A DNA stretch of 20,849 nucleotides, taken from positions 1-20,849 of the IMG/VR virus record IMGVR_UViG_2778261244_000002; one strand, written 5' to 3'. Shown piece by piece: positions 3,983-18,117 of the stretch. The position numbers were made by a program, and so were the translations under genes. Position 1 is the stretch's first letter, and each line of letters opens with the position of its first letter. The stretch comes from a virus (lineage: Duplodnaviria > Heunggongvirae > Uroviricota > Caudoviricetes). The notes under the pieces are model-generated. The model saw only the letters and a list, made by a program, of their open reading frames with translations, had not been told where the DNA came from and searched no databases.

Positions 3983-4281
3983 CAAGGGCAGTGCGTATCC
4001 ATCAATTAAAAATTGCACCTAAGTATTTCAACGCTGTGGTTGCAGGTCAAAAGACGGCTGAACTTCGTAAAGACGATCGTGGCTATAAAGTTGGTGATGT
4101 TCTTTCTCTTTGCGAATGGAAGCATGGCGTATTTACGGGTAGGGAATGGGCCGCTGTTATCTCTCATGTGCTTCCGGTTAATGACGTCATGGCAGTTTCA
4201 GAACAATGGGTGATGCTATCAATTCGCCCATTAACCCCATTAGAAGCTTTAGGATATGTTATTGCAGGAGGTGCTGTATGA
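3979..4281 (+). CDS. ASCH/DUF3850-like small protein
   Basis: ATG at 3979 overlaps the upstream stop (ATGA); translation [42 protein letters not shown] resembles PUA-like ASCH/DUF3850 proteins common in P2-like early operons. Confidence 0.55.
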
Positions 4282-5135
4282 GCACCATCCTGAAATGGGC
4301 GGGTAATAAAACTGCCATTATGTCCGAACTGAAAAAACATCTTCCTGCTGGCCCGCGACTGGTTGAACCTTTCGCGGGTTCCTGTGCTGTGATGATGGAG
4401 ACGGATTACCCCAGCTATCTTGTTGCGGATATTAATCCTGATTTAATCAACCTCTATAAAAAGGTTGCTGCTGATTGCGAGGCGTTTATATCTCGTGCCA
4501 GAGCTTTATTTGAGGAAGCAAACAGGGAGGTGGCTTATTACAACATAAGGCAGGAGTTTAATTACTCCACTGAAATTACTGATTTCATGAAAGCGGTATA
4601 TTTCCTGTATCTCAATCGTCATGGTTACCGTGGGTTATGTCGTTATAACAAGAGCGGGCATTTCAACATTCCATACGGTAATTATAAAAATCCGTATTTC
4701 CCTGAAAAAGAAATTCGCGCATTTGCAGAGAAAGCCCAGCGAGCAACGTTTATCTGCGCCAGCTTTGATGAAACGCTGGCGATGCTGCAGGTGGGGGATG
4801 TGGTGTATTGCGATCCGCCTTATGACGGTACGTTTTCCGGCTATCACACTGACGGCTTCACTGAAGATGACCAGTATCACCTGGCATCTGTTCTTGAATA
4901 TCGATCATCAGAAGGTCATCCAGTCATTGTTTCTAACAGTGACACATCCCTGATCCGTTCGCTGTATCGAAATTTCACTCACCACTACATCAAGGCAAAA
5001 CGCAGCATCGGCGTGTCGGCTGGCGAGAGTAAATCTGCAACAGAAATCATTGCTGTTTCCGGGGCGCGCTGCTGGGTGGGATTTGATCCTTCGTGTGGCG
5101 TAGATAGTTCTGCTGTGTACGAGGTGCGTGTATGA
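4278..5135 (+). CDS. dam: DNA adenine (N6) methyltransferase, Dam family
   Basis: N-terminal ILKWAGNK...EPFAGSCAV (AdoMet-binding motif) and catalytic DPPY ([12 protein letters not shown]); ATG at 4278 overlaps the upstream stop and its own stop overlaps the A start (ATGA). Confidence 0.85.
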
Positions 5136-7546
5136 GTCATGACGATATGAGCAACTCTAGCGGCTTTAACGAGGCCGCTGCAGCATTTTCATGGAACGGC
5201 CCGAAAAAGGCCATTAACCCTTATCTGGACCCGGCGGAAGTTGCTCCGGAGTCTGCACTTTTAAACCTGATCACTCTGTACGCTGCCGATAATGAGCAGG
5301 AACAGCTGCGCCGCGATGCACTGAGTGAGCAGGTCTGGGAGCGTTATTTCTTTAATGAATCTCGTGATCCTGTCCAGCGCGAAATGGAGCAGGATAAGCT
5401 CATTAGCCGGGCAAAGCTAGCGCATGAACAGCAGCGTTTTAACCCGGACATGGTCATTCTGGCGGACGTCAGCGCCCAGCCCACCCATATTAGCAAGCCG
5501 CTGATGCAACGTATCGAATACTTCAGCAGCCTGGGCAGGCCAAAGGCTTATTCCCGCTATTTGCGTGAGACGATTAAGCCATGTCTGGAGCGACTGGATT
5601 GTGTACGTGACAGTCAGCTGTCTGCTTCTTTCCGTTTTATGGCAAGCCATCAAGGGCTGGAGGGCCTGCTGATTCTGCCTGAAATGAGTCAGGATCAGGT
5701 GAAACGCCTGTCCACCCTGGTAGCTGCGCATATGAGCATGTGCCTTGATGCAGCTTGTGGCGATTTGTATGCCACCGATGACGTTAAGCCAGAAGAAATC
5801 CGCAAGACATGGGAAAAGGTGGCGGCGGAAACCCTGCGTCTGGATGTCATCCCACCTGCGTTTGAGCAACTCCGTCGGAAAAGAAACCGCCGTAAACCCG
5901 TGCCCTATGAACTCATTCCGGGTTCGCTGGCGCGTATGTTGTGCGCCGACTGGTGGTATCGGAAATTATGGAAGATGCGTTGCGAATGGCGGGAAGAGCA
6001 GTTGCGTGCTGTCTGCCTGGTCAGCAAAAAAGCATCTCCCTATGTCAGCTATGAAGCCGTGATGCATAAACGTGAGCAGCGCCGTAAGTCGCTGGAGTTT
6101 TTCCGTTCTCATGAACTGGTGAACGAAGACGGCGACACGCTGGACATGGAGGATGTGGTAAACGCCAGCAGCAGCAACCCTGCGCATCGCCGCAATGAGA
6201 TGATGGCCTGTGTTAAAGGTCTGGAGCTTATCGCGGAAATGCGCGGTGACTGCGCCGTTTTCTACACTATCACCTGTCCGTCACGTTTCCATTCCACGCT
6301 CAACAACGGCAGACCCAACCCGACCTGGACAAATGCGACGGTAAGACAAAGCAGCGATTATATGGTCGGCATGTTTGCTGCATTTCGTAAGGCAATGCAC
6401 AAAACCGGGTTGCGCTGGTATGGCGTGCGGGTGGCTGAGCCGCACCATGACGGTACTGTGCACTGGCATCTCATGTGCTTCATGCGTAAAAAAGACCGCC
6501 GCGCCATCACTGCATTACTGCGTAAGTTTGCCATCCGTGTAGACCGCGAGGAGCTGGGCAACAACACGGGGCCACGCTTTAAGTCTGAGCTGATTAACCC
6601 GCGCAAAGGAACACCGACAAGCTACATCGCGAAATACATCAGTAAGAACATTGACGGGCGTGGTCTGGCTGGCGAGATCAGCAAGGAAACGGGTAAATCC
6701 CTGCGTGATAACGCCGAATACGTTAATGCCTGGGCGTCTCTGCATCGTGTTCAGCAGTTCCGCTTCTTTGGTATTCCGGGACGTCAGGCTTACCGTGAAC
6801 TTCGCTTGCTGGCTGGTCAGGCGGCAAGGCAACAGGGTGACAAAAAAGCAGGTGCGCCGATACTGGATGACCCGCGCCTTGATGCCATCCTGGCTGCTGC
6901 TGATGCTGGTTGTTTTGCCACCTACATCATGAAGCAGGGCGGCGTACTGGTTCCCCGTAAATATCACCTTATCAGAACCGCTTATGAAATCAACGAAGAG
7001 CCGACCGCCTATGGCGATCACGGCATTCGTATTTATGGCATCTGGTCACCCATTGCAGAGGGCAAGATCTGCACTCATGCAGTGAAGTGGAAAATGGTTC
7101 GTAAGGCCGTTGACGTTCAGGAGGCGGTAGCCGACCAGGGCGCTTGCGCCCCTTGGACTCGTGGCAATAACTGTCCCCTTGCTGAAAATTTGAACCAACA
7201 AGGGAAAGACAAATCAGCTGATGGGGACTCCAGAACGGATATTACCCGTATGAATGACAAGGAGTTGCATGATTACCTGCACAGTATGAGCAAAAAAGAG
7301 CGCCGGGAACTGGCTGCAAGGTTACGCCAGGTGAAACCGAAACGGCGTAAAGACTACAAACAGCGAATTACAGACCATCAGCGACAGCAGCTCGTCTATG
7401 AACTGAAGTCCAGGGGATTTGATGGCAGCGAGAAAGAAGTCGATTTGCTCCTTCGCGGCGGCAGTATTCCGTCAGGAGCAGGCCTGCGTATCTTCTATCG
7501 GAACCAGCGTCTGAAGGAAGATGATAAGTGGCGGAACCTATATTAA
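5132..7546 (+). CDS. A: Rolling-circle replication initiation endonuclease (P2 gpA-like)
   Basis: 804-aa protein with an HUH-type motif ([13 protein letters not shown]) and a tyrosine-containing YIAKYISK segment; lies between the early genes and the accessory region as in P2/186. Confidence 0.9.
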
Positions 7547-7613
7547 TTACGCGGGTTAACAATTCGTGCTCTTAATAATACCAGGCATATCAGGCCGATG
7601 AACGTAAAAAAAC

Positions 7614-7660
7614 GTTTTACATCAGTAAGATTATTATATACTGTAAATATAAACAGTGGT
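7614..7660 (+). promoter_or_regulatory. SOS promoter with LexA box (CTGT-N8-ACAG at 7641-7656)
   Basis: TTTACA (-35-like) then TATACT overlapping CTGTAAATATAAACAG, a perfect CTGT-N8-ACAG LexA box about 45 nt upstream of the 7699 ATG. Confidence 0.7.
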
Positions 7661-7698
7661 TATGTGTACAGTATTGTTTTGGTGTCATAGGAGGAAAG

Positions 7699-7887
7699 AT
7701 GCAGGACTATTTTTTGGAGTCTTTGAAGCTCCAGCGCATTGATTTTTTTCTTAAGCTTGTAGCGGCTAGTGAGTGTAGTGATGAAGAGAAGGGGCTGGCT
7801 CTGCAGTGGGTTTCTGAATTGACTGATGAACTCATGGCAAAAATCAGAAGCCACGAATACAACCGCTCAATGGATGTCATCAGCTGA
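7699..7887 (+). CDS. Tum-like (antirepressor N-terminal part?) small protein, LexA-regulated
   Basis: Strong AGGAGG RBS; immediately downstream of the LexA box and 10 nt upstream of the DinI-like gene. Functional call is positional analogy to the 186 tum operon. Confidence 0.55.
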   Translation: MQDYFLESLKLQRIDFFLKLVAASECSDEEKGLALQWVSELTDELMAKIRSHEYNRSMDVIS

Positions 7888-7897
7888 GGTGACTTTT

Positions 7898-8131
7898 ATG
7901 CGCATTGAAATAATGATCGATAAAGAGCAGAAGATTAGCCAGTCTACCCTGGACGCCCTTGAATCCGAGCTTTACCGCAATCTGCGCCCCCTGTATCCCA
8001 AAACGGTAATTCGCATTCGCAAAGGTAGCTCTAACGGTGTGGAACTAACCGGACTGCAACTGGATGAAGAAAGAAAACAAGTGATGAAAATTATGCAGAA
8101 GGTGTGGGAGGACGACAGCTGGCTGCATTAA
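7898..8131 (+). CDS. dinI: DinI-family protein
   Basis: MRIEIMIDKEQKISQSTLDALESELYRNL...MKIMQKVWEDDSW aligns by eye with E. coli DinI (MRIEVTIAK...ALAGELSRR...ILQETWESADDW); GAGGTG RBS. Confidence 0.8.
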   Translation: MRIEIMIDKEQKISQSTLDALESELYRNLRPLYPKTVIRIRKGSSNGVELTGLQLDEERKQVMKIMQKVWEDDSWLH

Positions 8132-8137
8132 GATGTT

Positions 8138-8175
8138 GCCCCCAGGAGGATTCATTCTGATGGGGGCTAGTTTGG
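8138..8175 (+). terminator. Putative hairpin terminator after the dinI-like gene
   Basis: Inverted repeat GCCCCCA...TGGGGGC followed by TAGTTTG; weak T-tract. Confidence 0.35.
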
Positions 8176-8321
8176 GCAATGAGTGAAATAAGGCGTAAGG
8201 TGGGCGGTTATTTTGATAAGTGATCGTCCGCTTTGTGTCAGAAGCAGAAGTGGGAGTGTCTGAGACTCTCTAAAAGTTGATGATTCACTTACAAAACCAT
8301 TTTCCTGATGGATGCTTACAC

Positions 8322-8657
8322 TTACGAATGATCATTCTGTTTAGTCTTCATGAGAAAATCCCGAATCTTTGCCAAGTTTGAATTTTCGGGGATTGAATCC
8401 ATGTACGGATCACGCTCAAACACTAATTGCTCAGATTCAACGAAAGCCTGCCACTCTACTGGGTCTAGCTCAAATCCCATTGCTGTCATATCACTTTCAT
8501 CTTCCCCCTCGATCCAGTGGACTAAATAAAACAATTCATCATCAGGAGAATCATCCTCACCATCAACAATATCAACATCGGTTACAGTGATACGTAGGGT
8601 GGGATCGATTTTTGAGACATAAATTCCTAACTGTGGTATAGGGGGAATATTGTTCAT
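8322..8657 (-). CDS. Highly acidic hypothetical protein (111 aa)
   Basis: AAAGGAG RBS before the ATG at 8657; strongly acidic composition (GEDDSPDDE, EGEDESD); no recognised domain; oriented toward the dinI-like gene. Confidence 0.6.
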   Translation of the reverse strand: MNNIPPIPQLGIYVSKIDPTLRITVTDVDIVDGEDDSPDDELFYLVHWIEGEDESDMTAMGFELDPVEWQAFVESEQLVFERDPYMDSIPENSNLAKIRDFLMKTKQNDHS

Positions 8658-9036
8658 GGAAACTCCTTTTATTGGTGTTTGCTATTTGAATAAAAATACG
8701 CCAAACAGAGTGTTAACTGTGAATATGGAAAGAATCGTTGTAAGTACCCCGCTTAGGTGTCCCATTCTATTTTAGAGGTTCTCGTGCATATGGATTATGT
8801 TATCTGAAAGTTAACTTCCGCTTCCCGTTCACAGCGAACATTCATCTTTGTAAACCCGTATGATCCGTTTTTCAAGTGGCCATTCAGATACGGATTTTTA
8901 CTTCTTTGACAGTGCATGACTATGCTGCATGAAATCGCATGATCGATTGAGGATCGTCTTTGCTCAGATCTGCCAGAACTGGCGGGCTTTTGCTCATGTC
9001 ATGCATGTGCATGAAAACCACTGCATAAAGCGGGCA

Positions 9037-9060
9037 GGCGTGGCGGGGATACGAGCGCGC
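9037..9060 (+). other. cos-like GC-rich motif (tentative)
   Basis: GGCGTGGCGGGGATACGAGCGCGC resembles the start of the P2/186 cohesive end as remembered (GGCG[A/T]GGCGGGGAAAGCA...), within an otherwise AT-rich intergenic region; the match is partial. Confidence 0.25.
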
Positions 9061-9136
9061 GGATGAGTAATCTATACCATCATCTTGATAAAAGTATTAA
9101 AAATGGTAAATTTAGCAAGCTACATATTAAAGGAAA

Positions 9137-10534
9137 ATGAAGATGTATGAAGTAATTGATATATCAGCGCAGGAAATTAAGGCGTTGTTAAACACTGCTG
9201 AAGATCATTTCAATGATTTTAAAAGTAAGCAAATAGCGCCTAATAAATTACAAGAAACTTTTGTAGCATTTGCAAATGCTGATGGCGGTAATATTTATAT
9301 TGGCATAGAGGATGCAGCTTCGGGGAGAGAGCGTATATCTGGTTTCAATGAGCCAGAGGAAGCGAATGCTATTATTTCGACCTTATTGGAAAATACTAAT
9401 CCAGCTGTTGAGAATGTTGAGGTGGAATATTTAAGAACACCTTCCAATGGATTGATTTTACATGTGGATATACCAAAAAGCCCCAAAGTTCATTACACGG
9501 CCTCTGGCGATTGCTTTATAAGAGCTAACGCGCAAAAATTAAAAATAAAAGGTGAGCGAATTACTCAGCTTTCCTATTCTAAAGGCGCAGAACCTTATGA
9601 AAAAAAAGCAGTGGATATAGTTGAAGTAGAAGATATTCTTGAAAGTGAATATTATTCTGATTATTTACGTAGAATAGGAACGACTCAGTCACCGAGAGTT
9701 TTTTTAAAAAAACAACGACTGTTAACTAAGAAAGATGGTGAATTTGTCCCGAATGTAGGCTGTGTTTTACTATTTGATGAAGAGCCTCAAGGATGTTTAG
9801 ATACTCGATGTGCTGTAAAAGTATATCGGCTTAGAACAACTGAAGCAGAGTACAAACGTGAACAATTACAGGAAGATCCTGTAACGATTGAGGGGCCACT
9901 TGAAGTGGTTATTTTAAATACAATAGCAAAAGTAAAAGAATATGTTGATGGAGCATCATTCAAAGACGGCGAAAATCTAGTAAAACTTAGCTATCCTGCA
10001 GAAGCATTGAAGGAAATATTAGTTAATGCTGTTATTCATAGAGATTACAGCCAAAAGGATGATGTGCACGTAAAAGTTTATGACAACCGGATTGAAGTTC
10101 AAAGTCCAGGCAGATTGCCTGGATACATGACTATTAATAATTTATATGAAGAGCGGTTTTCTCGTAATCCAAATTTAGTGCGTTTGTTGCATAAACTTCC
10201 CAATCCAGTGAACCATGATATTGGTGAGGGGCTTGATACTGCAAAAAATGAATTGCGTAAGGCCGGGTTGGTAGCCCCGGTATTTGAAGAAAGGGGCAAT
10301 AATTTTGTTGTAATAGTTAAGCATCAAACAATAGCCTCAATTGAGGATGTGATTATTAATTATTTTAAAGAAAATCCAACGGGACAGCTCACAAATAAGT
10401 TGGTTAGACAATTAAGTGGCGAAGATGACCTTCAAAAGGTTAAAAAGGCATTGCAAAAGTTAAGGGAGGAGGGCGTAATAAAACCATTAGATCCTAACGC
10501 GAATCCTTTCAAATTTAAATATATTAAAGCTTAA
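9137..10534 (+). CDS. Schlafen-like AlbA_2 domain + HATPase_c_4-like domain + C-terminal wHTH protein (COG2865-type); candidate anti-phage cargo
   Basis: N-terminal EDHFNDFKS...ETFVAFANADGGNIYIGIED matches the AlbA_2/Schlafen-like signature; central LKEILVNAVIHRDYSQKDDVHVKVYDNRIEVQSPGRLPG matches HATPase_c_4; C-terminus looks like a winged HTH. AT-rich relative to flanks; followed by a hairpin terminator. The start may be the second ATG at 9143, which has better RBS spacing. Confidence 0.75.
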   Translation: MKMYEVIDISAQEIKALLNTAEDHFNDFKSKQIAPNKLQETFVAFANADGGNIYIGIEDAASGRERISGFNEPEEANAIISTLLENTNPAVENVEVEYLRTPSNGLILHVDIPKSPKVHYTASGDCFIRANAQKLKIKGERITQLSYSKGAEPYEKKAVDIVEVEDILESEYYSDYLRRIGTTQSPRVFLKKQRLLTKKDGEFVPNVGCVLLFDEEPQGCLDTRCAVKVYRLRTTEAEYKREQLQEDPVTIEGPLEVVILNTIAKVKEYVDGASFKDGENLVKLSYPAEALKEILVNAVIHRDYSQKDDVHVKVYDNRIEVQSPGRLPGYMTINNLYEERFSRNPNLVRLLHKLPNPVNHDIGEGLDTAKNELRKAGLVAPVFEERGNNFVVIVKHQTIASIEDVIINYFKENPTGQLTNKLVRQLSGEDDLQKVKKALQKLREEGVIKPLDPNANPFKFKYIKA

Positions 10535-10537
10535 GTT

Positions 10538-10566
10538 AAAGGTGGAGGTTGTCTCCACCTTTTTTC
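10538..10566 (+). terminator. Rho-independent terminator
   Basis: AAAGGTGGAG-GTTGT-CTCCACC followed by TTTTTTC, immediately after the 465-aa gene stop. Confidence 0.75.
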
Positions 10567-10585
10567 ATAGGTAATGATTTTTAAA

Positions 10586-11614
10586 TTATAGTTTATAGTG
10601 TTCGAAAGTTATTGCTTCTTCATTGATCCAATAGTTGAGATCTTGTAACTTCTTCTGAAGTGGCATCAGTTCATTCCGAACAAATACCCGGCTGGCCTTC
10701 TCCACATCCCCAAACCCTCCAACATTATTAGGCATAATCCCCATCATTTGCGGCGGCACGCGGTGCGCAGCCATCATGTCGTCGCGGCTGACATTTTTGA
10801 TATTCAGAAATTCATCCTTCGCCGCGACTTCTGATAACGGGATGATTTGAAGCCCGTCCTTTTTGCCGTTAGGCGAGTACATAAACAGATTGCGGAAGTT
10901 GCCTGGACCTTTGGCGCTTTTCATTGCGTTGCGGAGGTTGTTCACATCCTCCTGGTTCTGCGCGGCATCGGTCATGTACATGATGAAGCCTGCATGGCTG
11001 CCGTTGATGTAATACTTACGGCGGAACAGCGTGGCGGACTCGTTGAGCAGGGCTGACGGAATGGCAGAAAGATAGCCGGGCAGGCCGTAGATCTCCTGGT
11101 TAATGTCCGGTTCCATCAGATGAAAAATGCTGCCTTTCGTGAACTGATACGGCTGGGTTGTCATACCGTATTGCACAAACCAGTAGGTATCCAGGTCTAA
11201 CCCGCGTCGGGTGTATTTTGCCAGAGCAGGCTCAAGGGCGATAACTTCACCGAAGCGGTTCGTGCGTTTCTCCAGGTAGGCGTTACCAAATACCAGATAG
11301 TCCTGCACAAAACGTGAAAAAGCCTGCTGGCTGAGCAGCGGATGGGGGATGTAGGTACTGGTCAGAATGTTGCATTTCACCGCAATTGGTGAACTGTGAT
11401 GCACGGCGGCGCGGAAGGTGCGTGCCAGTCCGTCAAAGCTTACTGGCGGCTCATACCAGCGATCTGTCTGTACGCATTCCACATAGTCCAGTAGTTCGCG
11501 GCGGTCCAGAACAGGAACGGGATCACCGAAGCTGAATGCTTCGGCTGTAGTTTGACTTTTATGCTGGATCTGGTTCGTCGACGCAGCGCGGTTCTTCTTA
11601 CTCTTTCCCATCAA
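10586..11614 (-). CDS. Q: Portal (capsid) protein, P2 gpQ-like
   Basis: 342-aa protein of gpQ-like length, translationally coupled to the upstream P remnant (its start overlaps the P stop), in the P-Q leftward arrangement of P2. Confidence 0.85.
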   Translation of the reverse strand: MMGKSKKNRAASTNQIQHKSQTTAEAFSFGDPVPVLDRRELLDYVECVQTDRWYEPPVSFDGLARTFRAAVHHSSPIAVKCNILTSTYIPHPLLSQQAFSRFVQDYLVFGNAYLEKRTNRFGEVIALEPALAKYTRRGLDLDTYWFVQYGMTTQPYQFTKGSIFHLMEPDINQEIYGLPGYLSAIPSALLNESATLFRRKYYINGSHAGFIMYMTDAAQNQEDVNNLRNAMKSAKGPGNFRNLFMYSPNGKKDGLQIIPLSEVAAKDEFLNIKNVSRDDMMAAHRVPPQMMGIMPNNVGGFGDVEKASRVFVRNELMPLQKKLQDLNYWINEEAITFEHYKL

Positions 11615-12285
11615 AAAATCTCCACAATATTACTGGTATTGGCGGACTCGCCCTGCAGTGGTTCGTTAAACAGTGCGTGCATTGTTGCCCAGGCCAGATC
11701 GGCGTGGCTGGCTTCTTCGCTGCGGCTGGCTTCATAGGTCGGGCGGTTGCCGCTGGCGGTGGTGGCGCGACGGATTGCCATGAATGACTGCGCAATGTCG
11801 GTGTGCCCGGCGTCAAACTCCAGACGGCGGTGGCTGATAATGTCGTAGGCCTTGAGCACCAGGGCGTTTTTAACGTTGGGGTTGTAGACAAACTCCCGGA
11901 CGGCAGGAAAGAATGCTTTCACGTTCTCGTAAACCCCGTGACCAACGCCGGTTGAGTCGATACCGATATAAGTCACGTTGTACTGTTCGGTCAGTTTTTT
12001 GATGGCGTCAGCCTGAGCGCGGAAGTCCATCCCGCGCCACTGGTGACGCTCAAGAATGCGGAATTTACCGCCCGGTACGGCTGGCGGTGCCACCACCACG
12101 CATCCGGCACTGTCGCCGTTCTGAGTACCTTTTGCGGGGTCATAACCGATCCATACTTCGCGCCAGCCAAACGGGCGCAGGGCCAGTGCATGGAAGTCGG
12201 TCCAGATTTCCCAGCTGTCCACCATGCACGCCTGCAGTTCGCTGAGCGGGAACACGGACGCGAGATCGTCCACGAACTCGCACAT
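11611..12285 (-). pseudogene. P: Terminase large subunit (gpP-like), C-terminal nuclease-domain fragment only
   Basis: Only about 224-263 aa of an expected ~590-aa terminase remain (open frame reaches at most 12402); the sequence contains the RNaseH-like nuclease region (GYDPAKG...GIDSTGVGHGV) and lacks the N-terminal ATPase. Confidence 0.7.
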
Positions 12286-12545
12286 CAGCAGGTTCTGGTA
12301 TCCAGCGTGACGATACCGGGGAAGTGCAGGCCGTGGAGCTTGTCGTGCGTGGACGTCACAAAGAAGTGGATTCCGGCGAGTGGAAGACGGGCGAAAGCAA
12401 CACTACCAAAGTGACCAGTACCAACAGCTACGCGAAGCTGACCATCAATGGTGAGGTGCTCTATGAAGTGGACCTTATCAACATGGTGGAAATTGTGGAC
12501 GGTGTGGACCTGATGGAAGCGCACCGCAACGCCCTCGGCCTCTGA
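12246..12545 (+). pseudogene. Probable tail-tube (FII-like) C-terminal fragment
   Basis: Open frame without a credible start, ending 55 nt upstream of gene E; called on position (FII precedes E in P2) and tail-protein-like sequence (KLTINGEVLYEVDLINMVEIVDGVDL). Confidence 0.3.
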
Positions 12546-12599
12546 TGTATCTGAACGGCGCGGGATACCGCGCCAGAACCCAATTGACAGGACAGCAAA

Positions 12600-12902
12600 A
12601 TGAGCGATAAGCAGACTGAAAAGACTATTCAACTGGATACCCCCATCAAGCGCGGTAAAACAGAAATCACCGAAATTGTGCTGCGTAAACCGCAGTCCGG
12701 TGCGCTGCGCGGTACACGCCTGCAGGCCATTATGGATATGGATGTAAACGCGATGATGACCGTGATCCCCCGCATCTCCAGTCCGGCACTGACCGCACAG
12801 GAAATTGCAGAGATGGACCCGGCAGATCTCACTGCCATGTCGGTTGAGGTTGTCACTTTTTTGTTGAAGAAGTCGGTGCTTGCCGGTTTACCGACAGCCT
12901 GA
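12600..12902 (+). CDS. E: Tail assembly chaperone gpE
   Basis: 100-aa ORF directly upstream of the tape measure gene with the slippery heptamer TTTTTTG at 12857-12863 near its end. Confidence 0.8.
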   Translation: MSDKQTEKTIQLDTPIKRGKTEITEIVLRKPQSGALRGTRLQAIMDMDVNAMMTVIPRISSPALTAQEIAEMDPADLTAMSVEVVTFLLKKSVLAGLPTA

Positions 12903-13036
12903 CGGTTGACGATCTGGTGGCAGATATCGCCACCATTTTTCACTGGCCGCCATCCGTTACTGACGTTATGCCGCTGACCGAAGTGCTGGAATGGCGGTAT
13001 AAAGCGATTCAGAGAAGCGGGGCCAACGATGAGTGA
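12600..13036 (+). CDS. E': gpE+E' -1 frameshift fusion product
   Basis: After a -1 slip at T_TTT_TTG (12857-12863) the -1 frame stays open to a TGA at 13034-13036, adding about 58 aa (...VEEVGACRFTDSLTVDDLVADIATIFHWPPSVTDVMPLTEVLEWRYKAIQRSGANDE) and overlapping the T start. Confidence 0.65.
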
Positions 13037-16000
13037 TAATAACCTGCGCCTTCAGGTCATTCTTAATGCGGTTGACAAGCTCACCCGCCCATTTCGATCC
13101 GCGCAGGCCAGTTCAAGAGAACTGGCTGCTGCTGTCAAAAAATCCCGCGATGCAATAAAGCAGCTTGATCAGGCCGGGAGCAGTCTGGACAGCTTCCGAA
13201 AGCTGCAGGCAGAAAATCAGAAATTAGGCGACAGGCTGAACTATGCCCGCCAGCGTGCAAATTTGCTCAGTCAGGAACTGGGAGCGATGGGGCCGCCTTC
13301 GCAACGTCAGGTTGTTGCTCTGGGCCGTCAACGGCTGGCTGTTCAGCGCCTGGAAGAACGCCAGAAAAAGCTGCAGCAGCAGACGGCGCTTGTGCGTGCT
13401 GAACTGTACCGGGCGGGAATTTCTGCGAAAGATGATGCGGGAGCAACTGCCCGTTTAGCCCGTGAAACATCACGTTATAACCAGGAATTGTCGAAACAGG
13501 AGGCGCGGCTGAAGCGACTGGGTGAAGCTCAGCGCAGGATGAATGCGGCGCGTGCCAGTTATGCCCGTTCGCTGGAGGTGCGCGATCGTATTGCAGGAGC
13601 CGGAGCCACTACCACGGCTGCAGGGCTGGCAATGGGGACGCCAGTGATGGCGGCAGTAAAAAGCTATACCAGCATGGAAGATGCCATGAAAGGTGTGGCA
13701 AAGCAGGTCAATGGTCTGCGTGACGATAATGGAAACCGTACTGCACGTTTTTATGAAATGCAGGATGCCATCAAGGCTGCCAGCGAACAGTTGCCGATGG
13801 AAAACGGTGCGGTGGACTTCGCTGCACTGGTTGAAGGTGGTGCGCGCATGAACGTCGCAGACCCTGACGACAGCTGGGAAGACCAGAAACGTGACCTGCT
13901 GGCCTTCGCCAGTACGGCAGCAAAGGCGGCAACAGCCTTTGAGCTGCCAGCGGATGAACTGTCAGAAAGTCTGGGGAAAATCGCCCAGCTCTACAAAATA
14001 CCTACCCGCAATATTGAACAGCTCGGCGATGCGCTGAACTATCTGGATGATAACGCCATGTCGAAAGGGGCGGACATCATTGATGTGATGCAACGTCTGG
14101 GCGGTGTGGCTGACCGTCTGGATTATCGTAAAGCGGCGGCACTGGGTTCCACCTTTCTGACACTGGGCGCTGCGCCGGAGGTTGCAGCCAGTGCAGCAAA
14201 CGCGATGGTGCGTGAATTGTCCATTGCCACCATGCAAAGCAAGAGTTTCTTTGCAGGGATGAATCTGCTGAAGCTCAATCCTGAAGTGATTGAAAAGCAG
14301 ATGACGAAGGATGCGATGGGAACTATCCAGCGTGTGCTGGAGAAGGTGAACGCACTGCCGCAGGACAAGCGTCTGTCTGCCATGACCATGTTGTTTGGTA
14401 AAGAGTTTGGCGATGACGCGGCGAAACTGGCAAACAACCTGCCGGAACTACAGCGCCAGCTAAAACTGACAGCGGGCAATGATGCGCTCGGTTCCATGCA
14501 GAAAGAATCCGACATCAACAAGGACTCACTTTCTGCTCAGTGGTTGCTGGTTAAAACCGGAGCGCAGAATACCTTCAGCAGCCTGGGCGAAACGCTGCGC
14601 CAGCCGCTGATGGATATTCTGTACACGGTGAAAAGCGTTACGGGAGCGTTGCGTCGCTGGGTGGAAGCTAACCCGGAACTCACGGGCACACTGATGAAAG
14701 TAGCCGCTATTGTGGCTGCGGTTACCGTAGGCCTCGGCACCTTGGCTGTGGCGCTGGCTGCAGTGCTGGGGGCGCTGGCAGTCATCCGTCTGGGATTCTC
14801 TGTGCTGGGCATCAAAACGTTACCTTCCGTTACGGCAGCAGTAACACGAACTAGCAGCGCGTTGTCCTGGCTGGCTGGCGCTCCACTGGCAGTGCTGCGA
14901 CGCGGGCTTGCTTCATCGGGTAACGCAGCGGGTTTACTTACTGCGCCGTTGTCGTCTTTGCGCCGTACGGCATCACTGACGGGAAATGTCCTGAAAACTG
15001 TAGCAGGTGCGCCGGTTGCACTATTGCGGTCTGGATTATCCGCTTTACGTGCTGTTGCTGTGATGTTTATGAATCCTCTGGCGGTACTGCGCGGTGGACT
15101 GGCTGCCGCAGGCGCGGTGCTTCGTGTGCTTGCATCTGGTCCGCTGGCGATGCTGCGCGTTGCCCTGTATGCCATATCTGGTCTGTTAGGTGCTCTGCTC
15201 AGTCCGATAGGTCTTGTGGTTACTGCACTGGCGGGCGTGGCGCTGGTTGTCTGGAAATACTGGCAACCCATCACCGCATTTCTCGGTGGCGTGGTGGAAG
15301 GATTCAAAGCGGCGGCAGGTCCCATCAGTGCTGCATTCGAACCACTTAAGCCTGTGTTTCAGTGGATTGGCGACAAAGTACAGGCGCTGTGGGGCTGGTT
15401 TACTGATCTGCTGACGCCCGTTAAGTCGACCTCTGCCGAACTGCAGAGTGCAGCGGCAATGGGGCGGCGATTCGGGGAGGCACTGGCGGAAGGGCTGAAT
15501 ATGGTCATGCATCCGCTGGACTCCCTGAAATCCGGCGTTTCCTGGTTGCTGGAGAAGCTCGGTATTGTCAGTAAAGAGGCCGCAAAGGCAAAACTGCCGG
15601 AAAGCGTGACGCGTCAGCAACCTGCGACGGTGAATGCAGACGGTAAAGTGATGATGCCATCGGGTGGTTTTCCATCATGGGGATATGGCTTTGCGGGGAT
15701 GTATGACAGCGGCGGGTATATCCCGCGCGGGCAGTTTGGCATCGTCGGTGAAAACGGGCCGGAAATTGTTAACGGCCCGGCAAATGTGACCAGCCGGAGA
15801 AATACAGCTGCACTGGCTGCCGTTGTTGCCGGAATGATGGGCGTTGCTGCCGCGCCAGCAGAGCTTCCACCGTTGCACCCTTTGGCACTTCCCGCGAAAG
15901 GTGGAGAAGCAATTGTGAGTCGCGCAGCCACTGTGCCACTCGTTCAACGGATTGAGGCACCGACGCAGATCATCATTCAGACGCAGCCAGGACAAAGTGC

Positions 16001-16106
16001 GCAGGATATTGCGCGGGAGGTGGCACGCCAGCTTGATGAACGTGAACGCAGGCTGAAGGCAAAAGCCAGGAGTAACTACAGCGATCAGGGGGGATACGAC
16101 GCATGA
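13029..16106 (+). CDS. T: Tail tape measure protein, gpT-like
   Basis: 1025-aa protein with an N-terminal coiled-coil-like region, central hydrophobic segments, repeated (A/L)LR(R/S/G)GL-type stretches and a Gly-rich C-terminal part; position after E/E'. Confidence 0.85.
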   Translation: MSDNNLRLQVILNAVDKLTRPFRSAQASSRELAAAVKKSRDAIKQLDQAGSSLDSFRKLQAENQKLGDRLNYARQRANLLSQELGAMGPPSQRQVVALGRQRLAVQRLEERQKKLQQQTALVRAELYRAGISAKDDAGATARLARETSRYNQELSKQEARLKRLGEAQRRMNAARASYARSLEVRDRIAGAGATTTAAGLAMGTPVMAAVKSYTSMEDAMKGVAKQVNGLRDDNGNRTARFYEMQDAIKAASEQLPMENGAVDFAALVEGGARMNVADPDDSWEDQKRDLLAFASTAAKAATAFELPADELSESLGKIAQLYKIPTRNIEQLGDALNYLDDNAMSKGADIIDVMQRLGGVADRLDYRKAAALGSTFLTLGAAPEVAASAANAMVRELSIATMQSKSFFAGMNLLKLNPEVIEKQMTKDAMGTIQRVLEKVNALPQDKRLSAMTMLFGKEFGDDAAKLANNLPELQRQLKLTAGNDALGSMQKESDINKDSLSAQWLLVKTGAQNTFSSLGETLRQPLMDILYTVKSVTGALRRWVEANPELTGTLMKVAAIVAAVTVGLGTLAVALAAVLGALAVIRLGFSVLGIKTLPSVTAAVTRTSSALSWLAGAPLAVLRRGLASSGNAAGLLTAPLSSLRRTASLTGNVLKTVAGAPVALLRSGLSALRAVAVMFMNPLAVLRGGLAAAGAVLRVLASGPLAMLRVALYAISGLLGALLSPIGLVVTALAGVALVVWKYWQPITAFLGGVVEGFKAAAGPISAAFEPLKPVFQWIGDKVQALWGWFTDLLTPVKSTSAELQSAAAMGRRFGEALAEGLNMVMHPLDSLKSGVSWLLEKLGIVSKEAAKAKLPESVTRQQPATVNADGKVMMPSGGFPSWGYGFAGMYDSGGYIPRGQFGIVGENGPEIVNGPANVTSRRNTAALAAVVAGMMGVAAAPAELPPLHPLALPAKGGEAIVSRAATVPLVQRIEAPTQIIIQTQPGQSAQDIAREVARQLDERERRLKAKARSNYSDQGGYDA

Positions 16107-16588
16107 TGATGGTGCTGGGATTGTACGTGTTTATGCTGCGCACCGTTCCGTATCAGGAACTGCAGTATCAACGCAGCTGGCGACATGCGGCAAACAGTCG
16201 GGTAAACCGACGTCCGTCCACGCAGTTTCTGGGACCGGAAAACGACATGCTGACGCTTTCCGGTGTTCTTATGCCGGAGATAACAGGCGGCAGGCTGTCG
16301 TTGCTGGCACTGGAGCAGATGGCAGAACAGGGGAAAGCATGGCCCCTGATTGAAGGCAGCGGCACGATTTACGGCATGTATGTGATTGAGGGACTGAATC
16401 AGACTAAAACGGAGTTTTTCCGCGACGGTATGCCGCGCCGCATTGAGTTCACCCTGTCGCTCAAACGAGTGGATGAATCCCTGTCCGATATGTTCGGTGA
16501 TCTCAGTGCGCAACTGAATAATCTGCAGGACACGGCAACGTCTGCCTTAAGCGATATCAGTAAAACGGTGGGAGGGCTGCTGTCGTGA
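16103..16588 (+). CDS. U: Tail protein gpU-like
   Basis: 161-aa ORF translationally coupled to T (ATG overlaps the T stop) with a CAGGGGGGA RBS; size and position match P2 gpU. Confidence 0.8.
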   Translation: MMMVLGLYVFMLRTVPYQELQYQRSWRHAANSRVNRRPSTQFLGPENDMLTLSGVLMPEITGGRLSLLALEQMAEQGKAWPLIEGSGTIYGMYVIEGLNQTKTEFFRDGMPRRIEFTLSLKRVDESLSDMFGDLSAQLNNLQDTATSALSDISKTVGGLLS

Positions 16589-17685
16589 ATTTCAGCTCTG
16601 AACTGCTTAACAAAGGCAACAAAACTCCCGCATTCAGCATCAGTATTGAGGGCAGGGATATCACCACTGTGCTGGATAACCGCCTGATGAGTCTGACGCT
16701 GACGGATAACCGGGGCTTTGAAGCGGACCAGCTTGATCTGGAACTGGATGACGCTGACGGAAAAATCGTGCTGCCGCGCCGTGGTGCGGTCATTACGCTG
16801 GCGCTGGGCTGGAAGGGGCAGCCGCTTTTCCCGAAAGGGGCATTCACAGTGGACGAGATTGAACACACTGGCGCACCGGACCGCCTGACTATCCGGGCGC
16901 GAAGTGCTGATTTTCGGGAAACGCTGAATACCCGCCGTGAAAAATCGTGGCATAAGACCACCGTCGGGGAAGTGGTGAAGGAAATAGCCGCGCGGCACAA
17001 GCTGAAGATGGCACTGGGTAAAGACCTGTCGGATAAGCCCGTGGAGCATATAGACCAGACTAATGAGAGTGACGGCAGTTTTCTGATGCGGCTGGCGCGA
17101 CAGTACGGTGCCATCGCGTCGGTGAAAAATGGCAATCTGTTATTCATCCGGCAGGGGCAGGGCAAAAGCGCCACTGGTAAACCTCTGCCAGTGATCACTA
17201 TCACACGCAAGGACGGCGACAGTCACCGATTTACCCTGGCAGATCGCGGAGCCTACACGGGCGTAATTGCCAGCTGGTTGCATACCCGCGAACCTGCGAA
17301 GAAAGAAAGCACCACGGTGAAGCGTAAGCGCAGAACTAAGAAGCAGAAGAAAGAGCCAGAAGCGAAGCAGGGCGATTACCTGGTGGGTACGGATGAAAAC
17401 GTGCTGGTACTTAATCGCACTTATGCCAACCGGAGCAACGCCGAACGAGCGGCGAAAATGCAGTGGGAACGCCTGCAACGCGGCGTTGCGTCATTCTCGC
17501 TACAACTGGCAGAAGGGCGGGCAGATCTCTACACGGAAATGCCAGTGAAAGTCAGTGGCTTTAAACAGCCGATAGATGATGCGGAATGGACCATTACGAC
17601 TCTGACGCATGCCGTCAGCCCGGATAACGGTTTTACGACCAGTCTGGAGCTTGAAGTGAGGATTGATGATTTCGAAATGGAATGA
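16585..17685 (+). CDS. D: Tail protein gpD-like
   Basis: GTG start overlapping the U stop, GGGAGGG RBS; 366 aa; T-U-D-ogr order matches P2. Confidence 0.8.
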   Translation: MNFSSELLNKGNKTPAFSISIEGRDITTVLDNRLMSLTLTDNRGFEADQLDLELDDADGKIVLPRRGAVITLALGWKGQPLFPKGAFTVDEIEHTGAPDRLTIRARSADFRETLNTRREKSWHKTTVGEVVKEIAARHKLKMALGKDLSDKPVEHIDQTNESDGSFLMRLARQYGAIASVKNGNLLFIRQGQGKSATGKPLPVITITRKDGDSHRFTLADRGAYTGVIASWLHTREPAKKESTTVKRKRRTKKQKKEPEAKQGDYLVGTDENVLVLNRTYANRSNAERAAKMQWERLQRGVASFSLQLAEGRADLYTEMPVKVSGFKQPIDDAEWTITTLTHAVSPDNGFTTSLELEVRIDDFEME

Positions 17686-17775
17686 TTCTTCGCAATGGAG
17701 AACTTTTAAGTTTGCAAAATGGAATAATGCGGTATCATTATTGTGAATTTAGCAAAAATGGGGAGAACTCGAAAA

Positions 17776-18016: not shown

Positions 18017-18074
18017 TCGTAAAAAAACAGTGTTTCTAACATCATGATTTTAAACAGCTTAAATTTCAGGCAAC

Positions 18075-18117
18075 AAAAAACCCATCAACCTTGAACCGAA
18101 ATGGCGGGGTTGATGGG
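18075..18117 (-). terminator. Rho-independent terminator (minus strand), downstream of ybjL
   Basis: Perfect 10-bp inverted repeat CCCATCAACC / GGTTGATGGG with a 16-17-nt loop, followed on the minus strand by TTTTTT. Confidence 0.6.

What the first reader, a model, noticed from the sequence alone, without database searches (positions are those of the whole stretch)
9137..10534. AT-rich Schlafen-like (AlbA_2) + HATPase_c_4 + wHTH gene at the cos/Q accessory site
A 465-aa protein with a Schlafen-like AlbA_2 N-terminal domain, an HATPase_c_4-like middle domain and a C-terminal winged HTH sits between replication gene A and portal gene Q. It is visibly more AT-rich than the flanking phage genes and has its own terminator. 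In P2 this interval holds old and tin, and it is a recognised cargo site for anti-phage systems in P2-like prophages. Eukaryotic Schlafen-core proteins are tRNA/RNA nucleases, so a single-gene abortive-infection or RNA-targeting defence role is plausible; I know of no characterised defence function for this architecture.
Basis: partly seen in the sequence, partly recalled or inferred. Interest (0 to 1): 0.8.

Follow-up and report, generated by a model that had tools for sequence, protein, structure and literature searches.

The report
Prophage Schlafen–ATPase defence-type gene cassette
A P2/186-like prophage remnant in E. coli carries, in its known cargo slot next to the DNA-packaging site, a self-contained gene for a bacterial Schlafen nuclease fused to an ATPase and a DNA-binding domain; this protein class is common and already catalogued, was recently linked to phage defence, and has never been shown to work in this stand-alone form.

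Summary
ORF 9137-10534 is real, though the likely start is ATG 9143 (463 aa). It has SLFN_AlbA_2 (E 3e-18) and HATPase_c_4 (E 3.5e-17) domains. A C-terminal winged helix is seen only in the structure model. GC is 36% against 53-54% in the flanks, and the gene has its own conserved promoter and terminator. It lies between gpA and gpQ, more precisely between cos (9037-9055) and Q, on the opposite side of cos from P2 old/tin. Sister prophages with identical flanks carry retron Ec67 or a TIR protein in this slot; phage P2 and Yersinia phage MLG42 have nothing there.

The architecture is not unknown. It is the stand-alone "Schlatpase"-HTH (pSlfn HisKinase-HTH) class, the commonest prokaryotic Schlafen form, and this exact protein (WP_001471283) is listed in Rousset 2022's P2 hotspot table. 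The nuclease motif E22-x4-D27-x-K29 and the ATPase motif E293/N297 are intact, and dN/dS is about 0.05.

Best reading: a prophage-borne, ATP-gated tRNA nuclease that aborts infection. This is inferred, not shown. The HisKinase-type fusions tested by others were not among the two systems that protected.

Verdict: new member of a known kind, moderate interest.

The parts
8911..9061 (+). Conserved P2-family cos block. It forms the left border of the variable slot.
   Evidence: 87-91% identical to Fels-2, SopEPhi and Klebsiella/Yersinia/Escherichia P2-like phages. Identity with sister prophages stops at exactly 9061.
9037..9055 (+). 19-nt cohesive-end sequence GGCGTGGCGGGGATACGAG (cos cleavage site).
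   Evidence: Aligns with the annotated cosL/cosR of P2, GGCGAGGCGGGGAAAGCAC.
9062..10651 (+). Variable cargo cassette between cos and the conserved body of portal gene Q. It includes the last ~22 codons of Q.
   Evidence: blastn against E. coli 2014C-3061 (retron Ec67 in this slot), phage 500465-1 (TIR protein) and Yersinia phage MLG42 (empty, 245 bp). Homology is lost at 9061 and regained at 10652-10665.
9085..9112 (+). Sigma-70 promoter-like site: -35 TTGATA, 16-nt spacer ending in TG, -10 TAAATT.
   Evidence: Found by the consensus scan. The -35 TTG and the TG-n-TAAATT are invariant in Enterobacter, Citrobacter, Dickeya and Rahnella copies although the flanks differ.
9143..10534 (+). Coding sequence of the 463-aa Schlafen-GHKL ATPase-winged helix protein. 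The maximal ORF starts at 9137 (465 aa). Residue numbers in this report use the 465-aa numbering.
   Evidence: Identical to WP_001471283 apart from about 0.1% nucleotide differences.
9200..9547 (+). Schlafen (SLFN_AlbA_2) nuclease domain, residues 22-137. The catalytic motif E22-x4-D27-x-K29 is at 9200-9223.
   Evidence: Pfam E 3.1e-18. The motif is invariant in 28 orthologues. Across 56 relatives at 24-51% identity it is E 53/56, D or E 53/56, K 50/56. It matches the Ex4(E/D)xK motif of PMC13056530. Foldseek matches SLFN14, SLFN5, SLFN13, SLFN12 and the SAMD9 tRNase domain.
9548..9991 (+). Linker/middle region, residues 138-285. It has no Pfam family and is among the least conserved parts (with the winged helix).
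   Evidence: No Pfam hit at E<=10. PADLOC Aga_SIR2-PNTD1-PNTD2 model matches residues 190-327, E 4e-14. dN/dS 0.056-0.069.
9992..10321 (+). GHKL/Bergerat-type ATPase domain, residues 286-395 (HATPase_c_4 at 309-393). N-box E293...N297 at 10013-10027. D361-x-G363-x-G365 at 10217-10231.
   Evidence: Pfam E 3.5e-17. E293, N297, H301, R302, Y304, P324, R343 and N344 are invariant in 56/56 relatives. Foldseek matches BCK/PDK kinases and histidine-kinase CA domains. dN/dS about 0.01.
10322..10531 (+). C-terminal winged helix-turn-helix, residues 396-465.
   Evidence: AF2 secondary structure and Foldseek matches to MarR, QsrR, ScpB and Pol III RPC39 winged helices. No significant sequence-family hit.
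10538..10565 (+). Intrinsic terminator: stem core GGTGGAG/CTCCACC, loop GTTGT, then TTTTTT. It lies 20 bp from the stop codon of the converging Q gene.
   Evidence: -15.9 kcal/mol, z -4.16. A hairpin is kept through compensatory changes in Rahnella and is replaced by another hairpin in Dickeya.

Best explanation
The feature is a self-contained, monocistronic cargo cassette with its own promoter, ORF and terminator. It sits in the cos-proximal cargo slot of a P2/186-like prophage. It encodes a stand-alone 'Schlatpase'-wHTH protein: an N-terminal single-lobe Schlafen RNase, a GHKL ATPase and a C-terminal winged helix.

Proposed mechanism, which is inferred and not shown. The protein is made in the lysogen from its own sigma-70 promoter. 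[quoted passage not shown] The winged helix, together with the middle region, acts as sensor or gate, probably for a nucleic-acid cue produced during infection. Once activated, the nuclease cuts tRNAs, stops translation and aborts the infection of a superinfecting phage, which benefits the lysogen population.

Shown here: the anatomy, the intact catalytic motifs, the cassette boundaries, allelic replacement by known defence genes, strong purifying selection and horizontal spread. Inferred: the ATP-driven assembly (by analogy with RzAgo), tRNA as the substrate (by analogy with RorSlfn5, Cash and RzAgo), the sensor role of the wHTH, and the defence phenotype itself.
For: Domains and motifs. Fold: full-length match to 3lmm, N-terminus to human SLFN5/12/13/14 and the SAMD9 tRNase domain, middle to BCK/PDK and histidine-kinase ATP-binding domains, C-terminus to winged helices. 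The PADLOC pAgo model PDLC02394 matches residues 36-397 at its N-terminal positions 55-437 of 1121, which is the Schlatpase part of SLFN-pAgo (E 1e-19).

Slot: the cassette lies between cos and Q. A sister prophage that is 99.7% identical up to 9061 carries retron Ec67 there, another carries a TIR protein, and P2 and MLG42 have no gene there. The gpA-gpQ interval is a published defence hotspot and lists this protein.

The gene occurs in intact prophages in E. coli B771 and CPww7 and in Enterobacter ludwigii. It is retained intact in two differently deleted remnants. dN/dS is 0.04-0.06. It is present in only 8 of 5426 complete E. coli genomes and is AT-rich relative to its flanks in every proteobacterial host examined. 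The promoter and terminator travel with the gene.

Close Schlatpase relatives are fused to HsdR-like restriction helicases.

Literature: pSlfns are anti-phage tRNases with the Ex4(E/D)xK motif. GHKL ATP binding drives tetramerisation and tRNA cleavage in RzAgo, and both nuclease and ATPase mutants lose defence. Slfn-ATPase-DNA-binding proteins cluster with BREX, RM and CRISPR systems.
Against: No phenotype is known for any stand-alone Schlatpase-HTH. Of the seven Enterobacterales pSlfn systems tested in PMC13056530, which included HisKinase fusions, only a DUF262 fusion and an Ig-like fusion protected. The tested species included Enterobacter ludwigii, E. hormaechei and Citrobacter freundii, and Enterobacter and Citrobacter species carry 91-92% orthologues of this protein. 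A near-identical protein may therefore already have scored negative. I could not check this because Supplementary Table 3 is not held.

Outside Enterobacterales, orthologues are lone genes beside ordinary metabolic genes with no consistent partner. Only 2-3 of 75 neighbouring ORFs match defence models.

The whole protein, including the putative sensor, is very conserved: 70% identity across phyla and dN/dS about 0.05. This is unlike the fast-evolving sensor of pSlfn5.

The AF2 model is only moderate (pLDDT 71, and below 50 for residues 115-152). The wHTH has no sequence-level support. PADLOC and NCBIfam have no dedicated model for the protein.
Confidence: 0.5

Rival explanations
1. It is a DNA-binding regulator or ATP-dependent switch with no immune role, for example in prophage maintenance, gene silencing or a housekeeping-like function. 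The Schlafen/AlbA domain would serve as a nucleic-acid-binding module rather than a nuclease.
For: Database names are 'transcriptional regulator', 'putative DNA binding domain-containing protein' and 'RNA-binding domain-containing protein'. A C-terminal winged helix is present. Orthologues sit among ordinary chromosomal genes without defence neighbours. Conservation is very strong across all domains. Perez Taboada et al. note that 30% of pSlfns are not defence-associated.
Against: The nuclease motif E-x4-D-x-K is invariant in orthologues and 89-95% conserved (50-53 of 56) in distant relatives, which is not expected of a pure binding module. The distribution is patchy, AT-rich and horizontally transferred. 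The gene occupies a slot that alternates with retron Ec67 and TIR cargo. No palindromic operator was seen in its promoter region. The database names are automatic and derive from the domains.
Confidence: 0.15
2. It is a defence or conflict gene with a different target or logic. The Schlafen nuclease might cut other RNA (rRNA, mRNA) or ssDNA. The protein might act against plasmids or P4-like satellites rather than lytic phages. It might need a partner encoded elsewhere, such as an RM or BREX system.
For: Schlafen-ATPase-DNA-binding proteins are reported next to BREX, RM and type I CRISPR systems. Close relatives are fused to HsdR-like helicases. The SLFN5 N-domain entry is described as cleaving ssRNA and binding DNA. 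The lack of phenotype of HisKinase fusions expressed alone in E. coli K-12 would fit a missing partner or an untested target.
Against: In the prophage slot the gene is alone, with its own promoter and terminator. Its neighbour on the other side of cos varies independently. All three characterised prokaryotic Schlafen effectors cut tRNA.
Confidence: 0.2
3. It is a phage-benefit gene rather than a host-defence gene. It might remodel the host tRNA or RNA pool during lytic growth, counteract a host defence, or act in or near DNA packaging because it abuts cos.
For: The family is a PHROG (phrog_12156, E 1e-146) and occurs in Gordonia and Mycobacterium phages and in gut phage contigs. The gene starts 88 nt after the cohesive end.
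Against: The gene is dispensable and rare among P2-like phages, and it is replaced by unrelated cargo in sister phages. It persists intact in remnants that can no longer make particles. It also exists without any phage context. It has a sigma-70 promoter independent of the late operons.
Confidence: 0.07
4. In this particular genome it is a functionless passenger: a leftover of a decaying prophage, silenced (for example as AT-rich DNA) and on its way to loss.
For: The surrounding prophage is defective. The terminase is truncated and the head, lysis and baseplate genes are deleted.
Against: The ORF is intact and 99.7-99.9% identical to copies in intact prophages. All catalytic residues, the promoter and the terminator are intact. 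Two independent deletions spared it.
Confidence: 0.05

Closest known systems
Prokaryotic Schlafen, HisKinase-HTH class (pSlfn; Perez Taboada et al., Nat Microbiol 2026, PMC13056530), also called stand-alone 'Schlatpase'-HTH proteins (bioRxiv 10.64898/2026.05.29.728809)
   Same: Same domain order: PF04326, then PF13749, then a short C-terminal HTH. Same Ex4(E/D)xK motif and single-gene organisation. This is the class the protein belongs to. The two sources describe HisKinase and HisKinase-HTH fusions as 34% and 19% of 5,930 pSlfns, and Schlatpase as 58.6% of 103,533 SLFN proteins, with more than 90% of C-terminal tails being HTH.
   Different: Nothing architectural differs. The class has no demonstrated function. 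The location in the cos-Q slot of P2-like prophages is not discussed in those papers.
RzAgo / SLFN-pAgo (Schlatpase fused to a long-B Argonaute)
   Same: The SLFN+GHKL supradomain is homologous (PADLOC pAgo model, E 1e-19, over residues 36-397). It has the N-box Glu/Asn pair, E293/N297 here against E314/N318 in RzAgo. The expected logic is ATP-driven oligomerisation that builds the active Schlafen nuclease and leads to tRNA cleavage.
   Different: There is no PAZ/MID/PIWI core and therefore no guide-RNA sensor. A 70-residue winged helix stands where the Argonaute would be. The trigger is unknown.
RorSlfn5 (Slfn fused to an Ig-like sensor) and CbCash (Slfn-Csx15)
   Same: Same Schlafen effector domain and catalytic motif. 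These are single-polypeptide sensor-effector proteins that cut tRNA on activation.
   Different: The sensors differ: Ig-like binding of a T5 tail chaperone, and Csx15 binding of cA4. They have no GHKL ATPase. The pSlfn5 sensor evolves fast, whereas here every domain is under strong purifying selection.
Human SLFN11/13/14 and SAMD9
   Same: The nuclease fold corresponds to the Schlafen C-lobe, with acidic catalytic residues. The nuclease is coupled to an NTPase module and a nucleic-acid-binding module.
   Different: The mammalian proteins have a two-lobed nuclease in one chain and an SF1 helicase-type ATPase. Here there is one lobe and an unrelated GHKL ATPase. Sequence identity is about 12-14%.
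P2 old/tin and other gpA-gpQ hotspot cargo (Rousset 2022; Vassallo 2022)
   Same: Same prophage family and the same cos-proximal hotspot. All are accessory, AT-rich, have their own transcription signals and are swapped between sister phages.
   Different: The proteins are unrelated. old and tin lie on the A side of cos, at the right end of the virion DNA. This cassette lies on the Q side, at the left end, in the 167-bp cosL-Q interval of P2.
DIP2311 of Corynebacterium diphtheriae (PDB 3lmm, structural genomics, uncharacterised)
   Same: It is the only solved full-length relative (Foldseek E 3e-17; phmmer E 1e-6 over the GHKL region).
   Different: Identity is 16-17%, the protein is longer (583 aa), and no function is assigned.

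Membership tests
Prokaryotic Schlafen nuclease (pSlfn, PF04326) | Significant match to the SLFN_AlbA_2 profile | tested here: met
   E 3.1e-18, 66.9 bits against a cutoff of 25.3, residues 22-137 covering profile positions 1-117 of 118.
Prokaryotic Schlafen nuclease (pSlfn, PF04326) | Catalytic motif E-x4-(E/D)-x-K | tested here: met
   E22-DHFN-D27-F-K29. Invariant in 28 orthologues. In 56 distant relatives: E 53, D/E 53, K 50. The motif is as defined in PMC13056530.
Prokaryotic Schlafen nuclease (pSlfn, PF04326) | Schlafen C-lobe-like fold | tested here: met
   Foldseek matches SLFN14 (9jr9, E 2.4e-4), SLFN5-N (7cux), SLFN13-N (5yd0), the SAMD9 tRNase domain (9o0d) and SLFN12 (7eg0), all with probability 0.99-1.00. 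The model is of moderate quality, and part of the domain (residues 115-152) has pLDDT below 50.
Prokaryotic Schlafen nuclease (pSlfn, PF04326) | Trigger-dependent tRNA cleavage and phage protection | not testable with these tools
   Needs wet-lab assays. The published test of HisKinase-type fusions reported no protection.
Schlatpase supradomain (SLFN + GHKL ATPase PF13749), stand-alone HTH form | PF04326 followed by PF13749 in one polypeptide | tested here: met
   Both domains score above their curated cutoffs and are in that order. The PADLOC pAgo model aligns over residues 36-397.
Schlatpase supradomain (SLFN + GHKL ATPase PF13749), stand-alone HTH form | Intact Bergerat-fold ATP-binding motifs (N-box Glu/Asn, glycine-rich boxes) | tested here: met
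   E293 and N297 are invariant in 56/56 relatives. D361xG363xG365 and S323-P324-G325 are conserved. The fold matches BCK/PDK and histidine-kinase CA domains. Equivalence to RzAgo E314/N318 rests on motif and spacing, not on an alignment to RzAgo.
Schlatpase supradomain (SLFN + GHKL ATPase PF13749), stand-alone HTH form | Short C-terminal HTH | tested here: met
   Structure only: a winged helix at residues 402-464 with MarR/ScpB/RPC39 Foldseek matches. No Pfam family reaches its threshold.
Schlatpase supradomain (SLFN + GHKL ATPase PF13749), stand-alone HTH form | ATP-driven oligomerisation that activates the nuclease | not testable with these tools
   Shown only for RzAgo. Only monomer prediction was available here.
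P2-like gpA-gpQ (cos-proximal) defence hotspot cargo | Located between replication gene A and portal gene Q of a P2-like prophage, next to cos | tested here: met
   GPA at 5132-7546, cos at 9037-9055, portal at 10586-11614. Hotspot definition as in PMC9122126.
P2-like gpA-gpQ (cos-proximal) defence hotspot cargo | Allelic variability: different cargo between conserved flanks in sister phages | tested here: met
   Retron Ec67 in E. coli 2014C-3061, with flanks 99.7% identical up to 9061. A TIR protein in phage 500465-1. Empty in MLG42 and P2.
P2-like gpA-gpQ (cos-proximal) defence hotspot cargo | Already catalogued | tested here: met
   WP_001471283 is listed as 'hypothetical + HATPase_c_4/AlbA_2 + hypothetical + DinI' in a supplementary table of P2 gpA-gpQ loci (file 6, probably Table S5A) of Rousset 2022. 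It is not among the systems they cloned.
RecG-like DNA helicase (legacy annotation; PHROG 12156 'DNA helicase') | SF2 helicase motifs (DEAD/ResIII plus Helicase_C domains) | tested here: not met
   No helicase family appears in Pfam or NCBIfam at E<=0.01. The name comes from the Pfam description of PF13749. The PHROG match is to the whole Schlatpase family, not to a helicase.
SLFN-pAgo (prokaryotic Argonaute) | PAZ/MID/PIWI Argonaute core | tested here: not met
   The PADLOC pAgo hit covers only model positions 55-437 of 1121. The protein ends at residue 465 and has no Argonaute domains.

The most novel reading that the evidence does not exclude
This cassette could give the first functional handle on the commonest and still uncharacterised class of prokaryotic Schlafens. 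On this reading the stand-alone Schlatpase-wHTH is a complete one-protein immune system. Its winged helix and middle region would sense a conserved, hard-to-mutate infection cue, such as a nucleic-acid structure or an ATP/nucleotide state, rather than a variable phage protein. That would explain dN/dS of about 0.05 in all domains and 70% identity between Enterobacterales and Bacteroidota copies. It would also explain why narrow coliphage panels missed the phenotype.
Probability: 0.3. Interest if true: 0.55.

Novelty: new member of a known kind. Interest (0 to 1): 0.35.

Why it matters
According to the two 2026 surveys, Slfn-GHKL(-HTH) proteins make up more than half of all prokaryotic Schlafens, yet none has a demonstrated function. 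This copy is a good experimental entry point for four reasons:
- It comes from E. coli.
- It is a 1.5-kb cassette with its own conserved promoter and terminator.
- It exists in apparently intact, possibly inducible prophages (strains B771 and CPww7).
- It sits in a slot whose alternative occupants are validated defence systems.

A positive result would extend the tRNA-cleaving Schlafen immunity shared with humans to its largest bacterial branch and would define what the GHKL-wHTH module senses. A well-controlled negative result would be informative too. It would indicate that a large share of 'pSlfn' proteins are not stand-alone defences.

Tried and rejected
- RecG-like helicase annotation (JGI, PHROG, some phage records): rejected because there are no helicase domains.
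- pAgo membership suggested by the top PADLOC hit: rejected because only the N-terminal Schlatpase part of that model matches.
- Functional link to the upstream 111-aa ORF (8322-8657): rejected. It lies on the other side of cos, is replaced by an unrelated 141-aa ORF in strains with the identical Slfn gene, and pairs with retron Ec67 elsewhere.
- A conserved partner gene or defence-island context for orthologues outside prophages: not found. Ten loci were examined and the neighbours are mostly metabolic or secreted proteins. The two large ORFs I suspected of being type I restriction enzymes turned out to be aconitase and a tricorn-like protease.
- ncRNA, tRNA or repeat elements in the cassette: none. 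Only chance-level short repeats were found.
- An operator-like palindrome in the promoter region: none seen.
- Identifying whether the HisKinase pSlfns tested by Perez Taboada et al. are orthologues of this protein: not possible, because the supplementary tables are not held.
- Sequence-level assignment of the C-terminal domain and of the middle region: no significant Pfam family.
- The simple terminator scan missed the real hairpin. Folding confirmed it.
Full report
**1. Observation**

The window holds an ORF at 9137-10534 on the + strand, 465 aa. Pfam places SLFN_AlbA_2 at residues 22-137 (E 3.1e-18) and HATPase_c_4 at 309-393 (E 3.5e-17). Both scores are far above the curated cutoffs. The gene has 36.1% GC, against 53.3% for gpA on its left and 54.0% for Q/P on its right.

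A hairpin at 10538-10562 followed by a T-run folds at -15.9 kcal/mol, with z = -4.2 and none of 200 shuffles folding as well. The flanking genes are Phage_GPA (5132-7546) and Phage_portal (10586-11614, minus strand).

The C-terminal winged helix has no sequence-family support. It does appear in the AlphaFold2 model, and Foldseek matches it to MarR, ScpB and RPC39-type winged helices.

There is one small correction. The functional start is almost certainly ATG 9143 (463 aa). The AAGGA at 9130-9134 is 8 nt upstream of it, PGAP uses it, and only this ATG is conserved in orthologues.

**2. Where exactly it sits**

The 19-nt P2 cohesive end GGCGAGGCGGGGAAAGCAC aligns with window 9037-9055, GGCGTGGCGGGGATACGAG. 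The surrounding block 8911-9061 is 87-91% identical to many P2-like phages.

The gene therefore lies between cos and Q. In P2 this interval is only 167 bp and holds just the Q terminator. P2's old and tin lie on the other side of cos.

Comparison with sister elements fixes the cassette borders:
- E. coli 2014C-3061 is 99.7% identical from 7501 to 9061. It then diverges and rejoins at 10665, inside the 3' end of Q. In between it carries a retron Ec67 reverse transcriptase/endonuclease.
- Phage 500465-1 has a TIR-domain protein in the slot.
- Yersinia phage MLG42 has only 245 bp there.
- 131 complete E. coli genomes share the segment 8134-9061, and the matches stop at about 9061.

The cassette is thus 9062 to about 10651. 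It is one allele of a swappable cargo slot.

The small ORF on the A side of cos (8322-8657, minus strand) varies independently of the Schlafen gene. It is not a partner.

**3. A self-contained unit**

A sigma-70-like promoter lies at 9085-9112: TTGATA, 16 nt, TG-extended TAAATT. Its core bases are invariant in copies from Enterobacter, Citrobacter, Dickeya and Rahnella, although the surrounding DNA differs.

Each copy is followed by a hairpin. In Rahnella the hairpin is kept through compensatory changes.

No second gene, ncRNA or repeat belongs to the cassette.

**4. What the protein is**

The Schlafen motif Ex4(E/D)xK, defined as catalytic in PMC13056530, is present as E22-x4-D27-x-K29. It is invariant in 28 orthologues. 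In 56 relatives at 24-51% identity the counts are E 53, D/E 53 and K 50.

The GHKL N-box residues E293 and N297 are invariant in all 56 relatives. So are H301, R302, Y304, P324, R343 and N344.

The AF2 model is moderate: pLDDT 71, with residues 115-152 poorly modelled. Foldseek nevertheless gives these matches:
- over the full length, the uncharacterised structural-genomics protein 3lmm (E 3e-17);
- for the N-terminus, human SLFN14, SLFN5, SLFN13, SLFN12 and the SAMD9 tRNase domain;
- for the middle, BCK/PDK kinases and histidine-kinase ATP-binding domains;
- for the C-terminus, winged helices.

PADLOC has no dedicated model. Its best hit is the N-terminal part of a pAgo model. NCBIfam has nothing. 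The 'RecG-like helicase' label found in some records has no basis, because there are no helicase domains.

**5. Distribution and evolution**

The family is very large: 8,521 representatives of 50%-identity clusters at E<=1e-3.

The exact gene is in 8 of 5,426 complete E. coli genomes. In strains B771 and CPww7 it sits in apparently intact 186-like prophages. In strain 2017.11.01CC and in this window it sits in remnants with different deletions. Here the terminase is cut at about 12300 and the head, lysis and baseplate genes are gone.

Orthologues at 91-92% identity occupy the same slot in Enterobacter ludwigii and Citrobacter prophages. The Rahnella copies lie next to portal-gene fragments.

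Copies at 70-83% identity in Dickeya, Thiobacillus and Photobacterium are lone genes among ordinary chromosomal genes. In every proteobacterial host examined the gene is much more AT-rich than its flanks, for example 45.6% against 62-65% in Thiobacillus.

Copies at 69-71% identity in Chryseobacterium have nearly native composition, 30-33% against 33-37%. This hints at a low-GC origin.

dN/dS against the Enterobacter and Citrobacter copies is 0.04-0.05 overall and about 0.01 in the GHKL domain. No domain shows the fast evolution typical of protein-sensing defence domains.

Several of the closest multi-domain relatives (36-39% identity over the whole protein) fuse the module to an HsdR-like restriction helicase, with ResIII, Helicase_C and EcoEI_R_C domains. 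Outside prophages there is no recurrent neighbour. Only a few of 75 neighbouring ORFs match restriction-type models.

**6. What is already known**

The gpA-gpQ interval is a published hotspot of anti-phage systems (PMC9122126; PMC9519451; PMC13586616). A supplementary table of P2 gpA-gpQ loci (file 6, probably Table S5A) in Rousset 2022 lists this very protein, WP_001471283, as 'HATPase_c_4/AlbA_2'. It was not among the systems they cloned.

Perez Taboada et al. (PMC13056530) showed that prokaryotic Schlafens are anti-phage tRNases. They classified HisKinase fusions (34%) and HisKinase-HTH fusions (19.2%) as the commonest architectures. Of the seven Enterobacterales systems they tested, which included HisKinase fusions, only a DUF262 fusion and an Ig-like fusion protected.

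A 2026 preprint named the Slfn+GHKL pair 'Schlatpase' and counted it in 60,692 of 103,533 SLFN proteins, most of them small proteins with a C-terminal HTH. [quoted passage not shown] This pairs the single-lobe Schlafen domains into an active tRNase, and both nuclease and ATPase mutants lose defence.

The Cash paper notes that Schlafen-ATPase-DNA-binding proteins cluster with BREX, RM and type I CRISPR systems.

**7. Interpretation**

The best reading is a prophage-borne, single-protein abortive-infection system. The ATP-gated GHKL module would assemble the nuclease. The winged helix and middle region would sense or gate. tRNA cleavage would stop translation.

The anatomy, the motif integrity, the slot genetics, the selection and the mobility are shown here. 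The activity, the substrate, the trigger and the phenotype are inferred by homology.

The main counter-evidence has three parts. The HisKinase-type fusions tested so far gave no phenotype, and these possibly included close orthologues. Orthologues outside prophages have ordinary neighbours. The putative sensor is unusually conserved.

The rivals are a non-immune DNA-binding ATPase or regulator, a defence with another target or a missing partner, a phage-benefit function, and a silent passenger.

**8. Verdict**

The finding is real and correctly described, but it is not a new architecture. It is a new, well-delimited member of a known and recently named class, in a known hotspot, and it is already present in a published catalogue. 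Its value is as a convenient E. coli test case for the largest uncharacterised branch of bacterial Schlafens.

Noticed in passing
window 11611-13100 (junction near 12299-12301): The prophage is defective. The large terminase gene keeps only its C-terminal RNaseH-like domain (224-aa ORF). Homology to intact prophages stops at about 12301 and the sequence continues into the 3' end of the tail-tube gene and the E tail chaperone (12600-12902). The head, lysis, baseplate, fibre and sheath genes are therefore deleted. Strain 2017.11.01CC has a different, larger deletion (window 11886 to 16929), while B771 and CPww7 have the full prophage. No complete E. coli genome shows this exact junction.
   Followed up: partly
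window 18072-18150 (-): The RybB sRNA gene (Rfam RF00110, 105 bits) lies directly beside the right end of the prophage, after an ogr-like ORF at 17682-17876 and before ybjL at 18230-19915. The element is inserted between the rcdA/ybjJ side and rybB-ybjL, which suggests that rybB or its 3' flank is the attachment site.
   Followed up: no
window 8322-8657 (-): A 111-aa, very acidic ORF of unknown function (phrog_17127, E 2e-70; named 'DUF8087' in one RefSeq record). It is the cargo on the A side of cos. Its segment is present in 131 complete E. coli genomes. It is combined with different cos-Q cargo, for example retron Ec67, and is replaced by an unrelated 141-aa ORF with a hydrophobic, signal-peptide-like N-terminus (WP_000834899) in the strains that carry the identical Schlafen gene.
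   Followed up: partly
L026 (E. coli 2014C-3061) 4170-5926; L011 (phage 500465-1) 3724-5026: The same cos-Q slot holds a retron Ec67-family RT/endonuclease plus a small ORF in one sister prophage, and a TIR-domain protein plus a small ORF in another. The hotspot thus consists of two independently exchanging sub-slots, one on each side of cos.
   Followed up: partly
L015, L016, L019 (Chryseobacterium), match at 7001-8383: Orthologues with 59-71% amino-acid identity occur in Bacteroidota (Chryseobacterium, Flavobacteriaceae, Sphingobacteriales MAGs). In Chryseobacterium the gene's GC (30-33%) is close to that of its flanks (33-37%). This is unusually high cross-phylum conservation and points to a possible low-GC donor lineage.
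   Followed up: partly
proteins P0137, P0132, P0141, P0136, P0163: Several of the closest multi-domain relatives fuse the whole Schlafen-GHKL-wHTH unit to an SF2 helicase with ResIII, Helicase_C and EcoEI_R_C domains (type I restriction R-subunit-like). This is a bacterial nuclease+ATPase+helicase arrangement reminiscent of long mammalian Schlafens.
   Followed up: no
window 4206-5135 (+): A Dam-type orphan N6-adenine methyltransferase (MethyltransfD12, E 1e-76; PADLOC oMTase) lies in the early operon just upstream of gpA. The segment differs between sister prophages: no blastn match to strain 2017.11.01CC over window 3983-4266, and some relatives carry an extra ORF here.
   Followed up: no
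window 7699-8131 (+): A 62-aa ORF (phrog_698, unknown function) is followed by a DinI-like gene (PF06183, E 1e-22). The 101-aa ORF is probably over-extended at its 5' end, because RefSeq annotates 77 aa in relatives.
   Followed up: no
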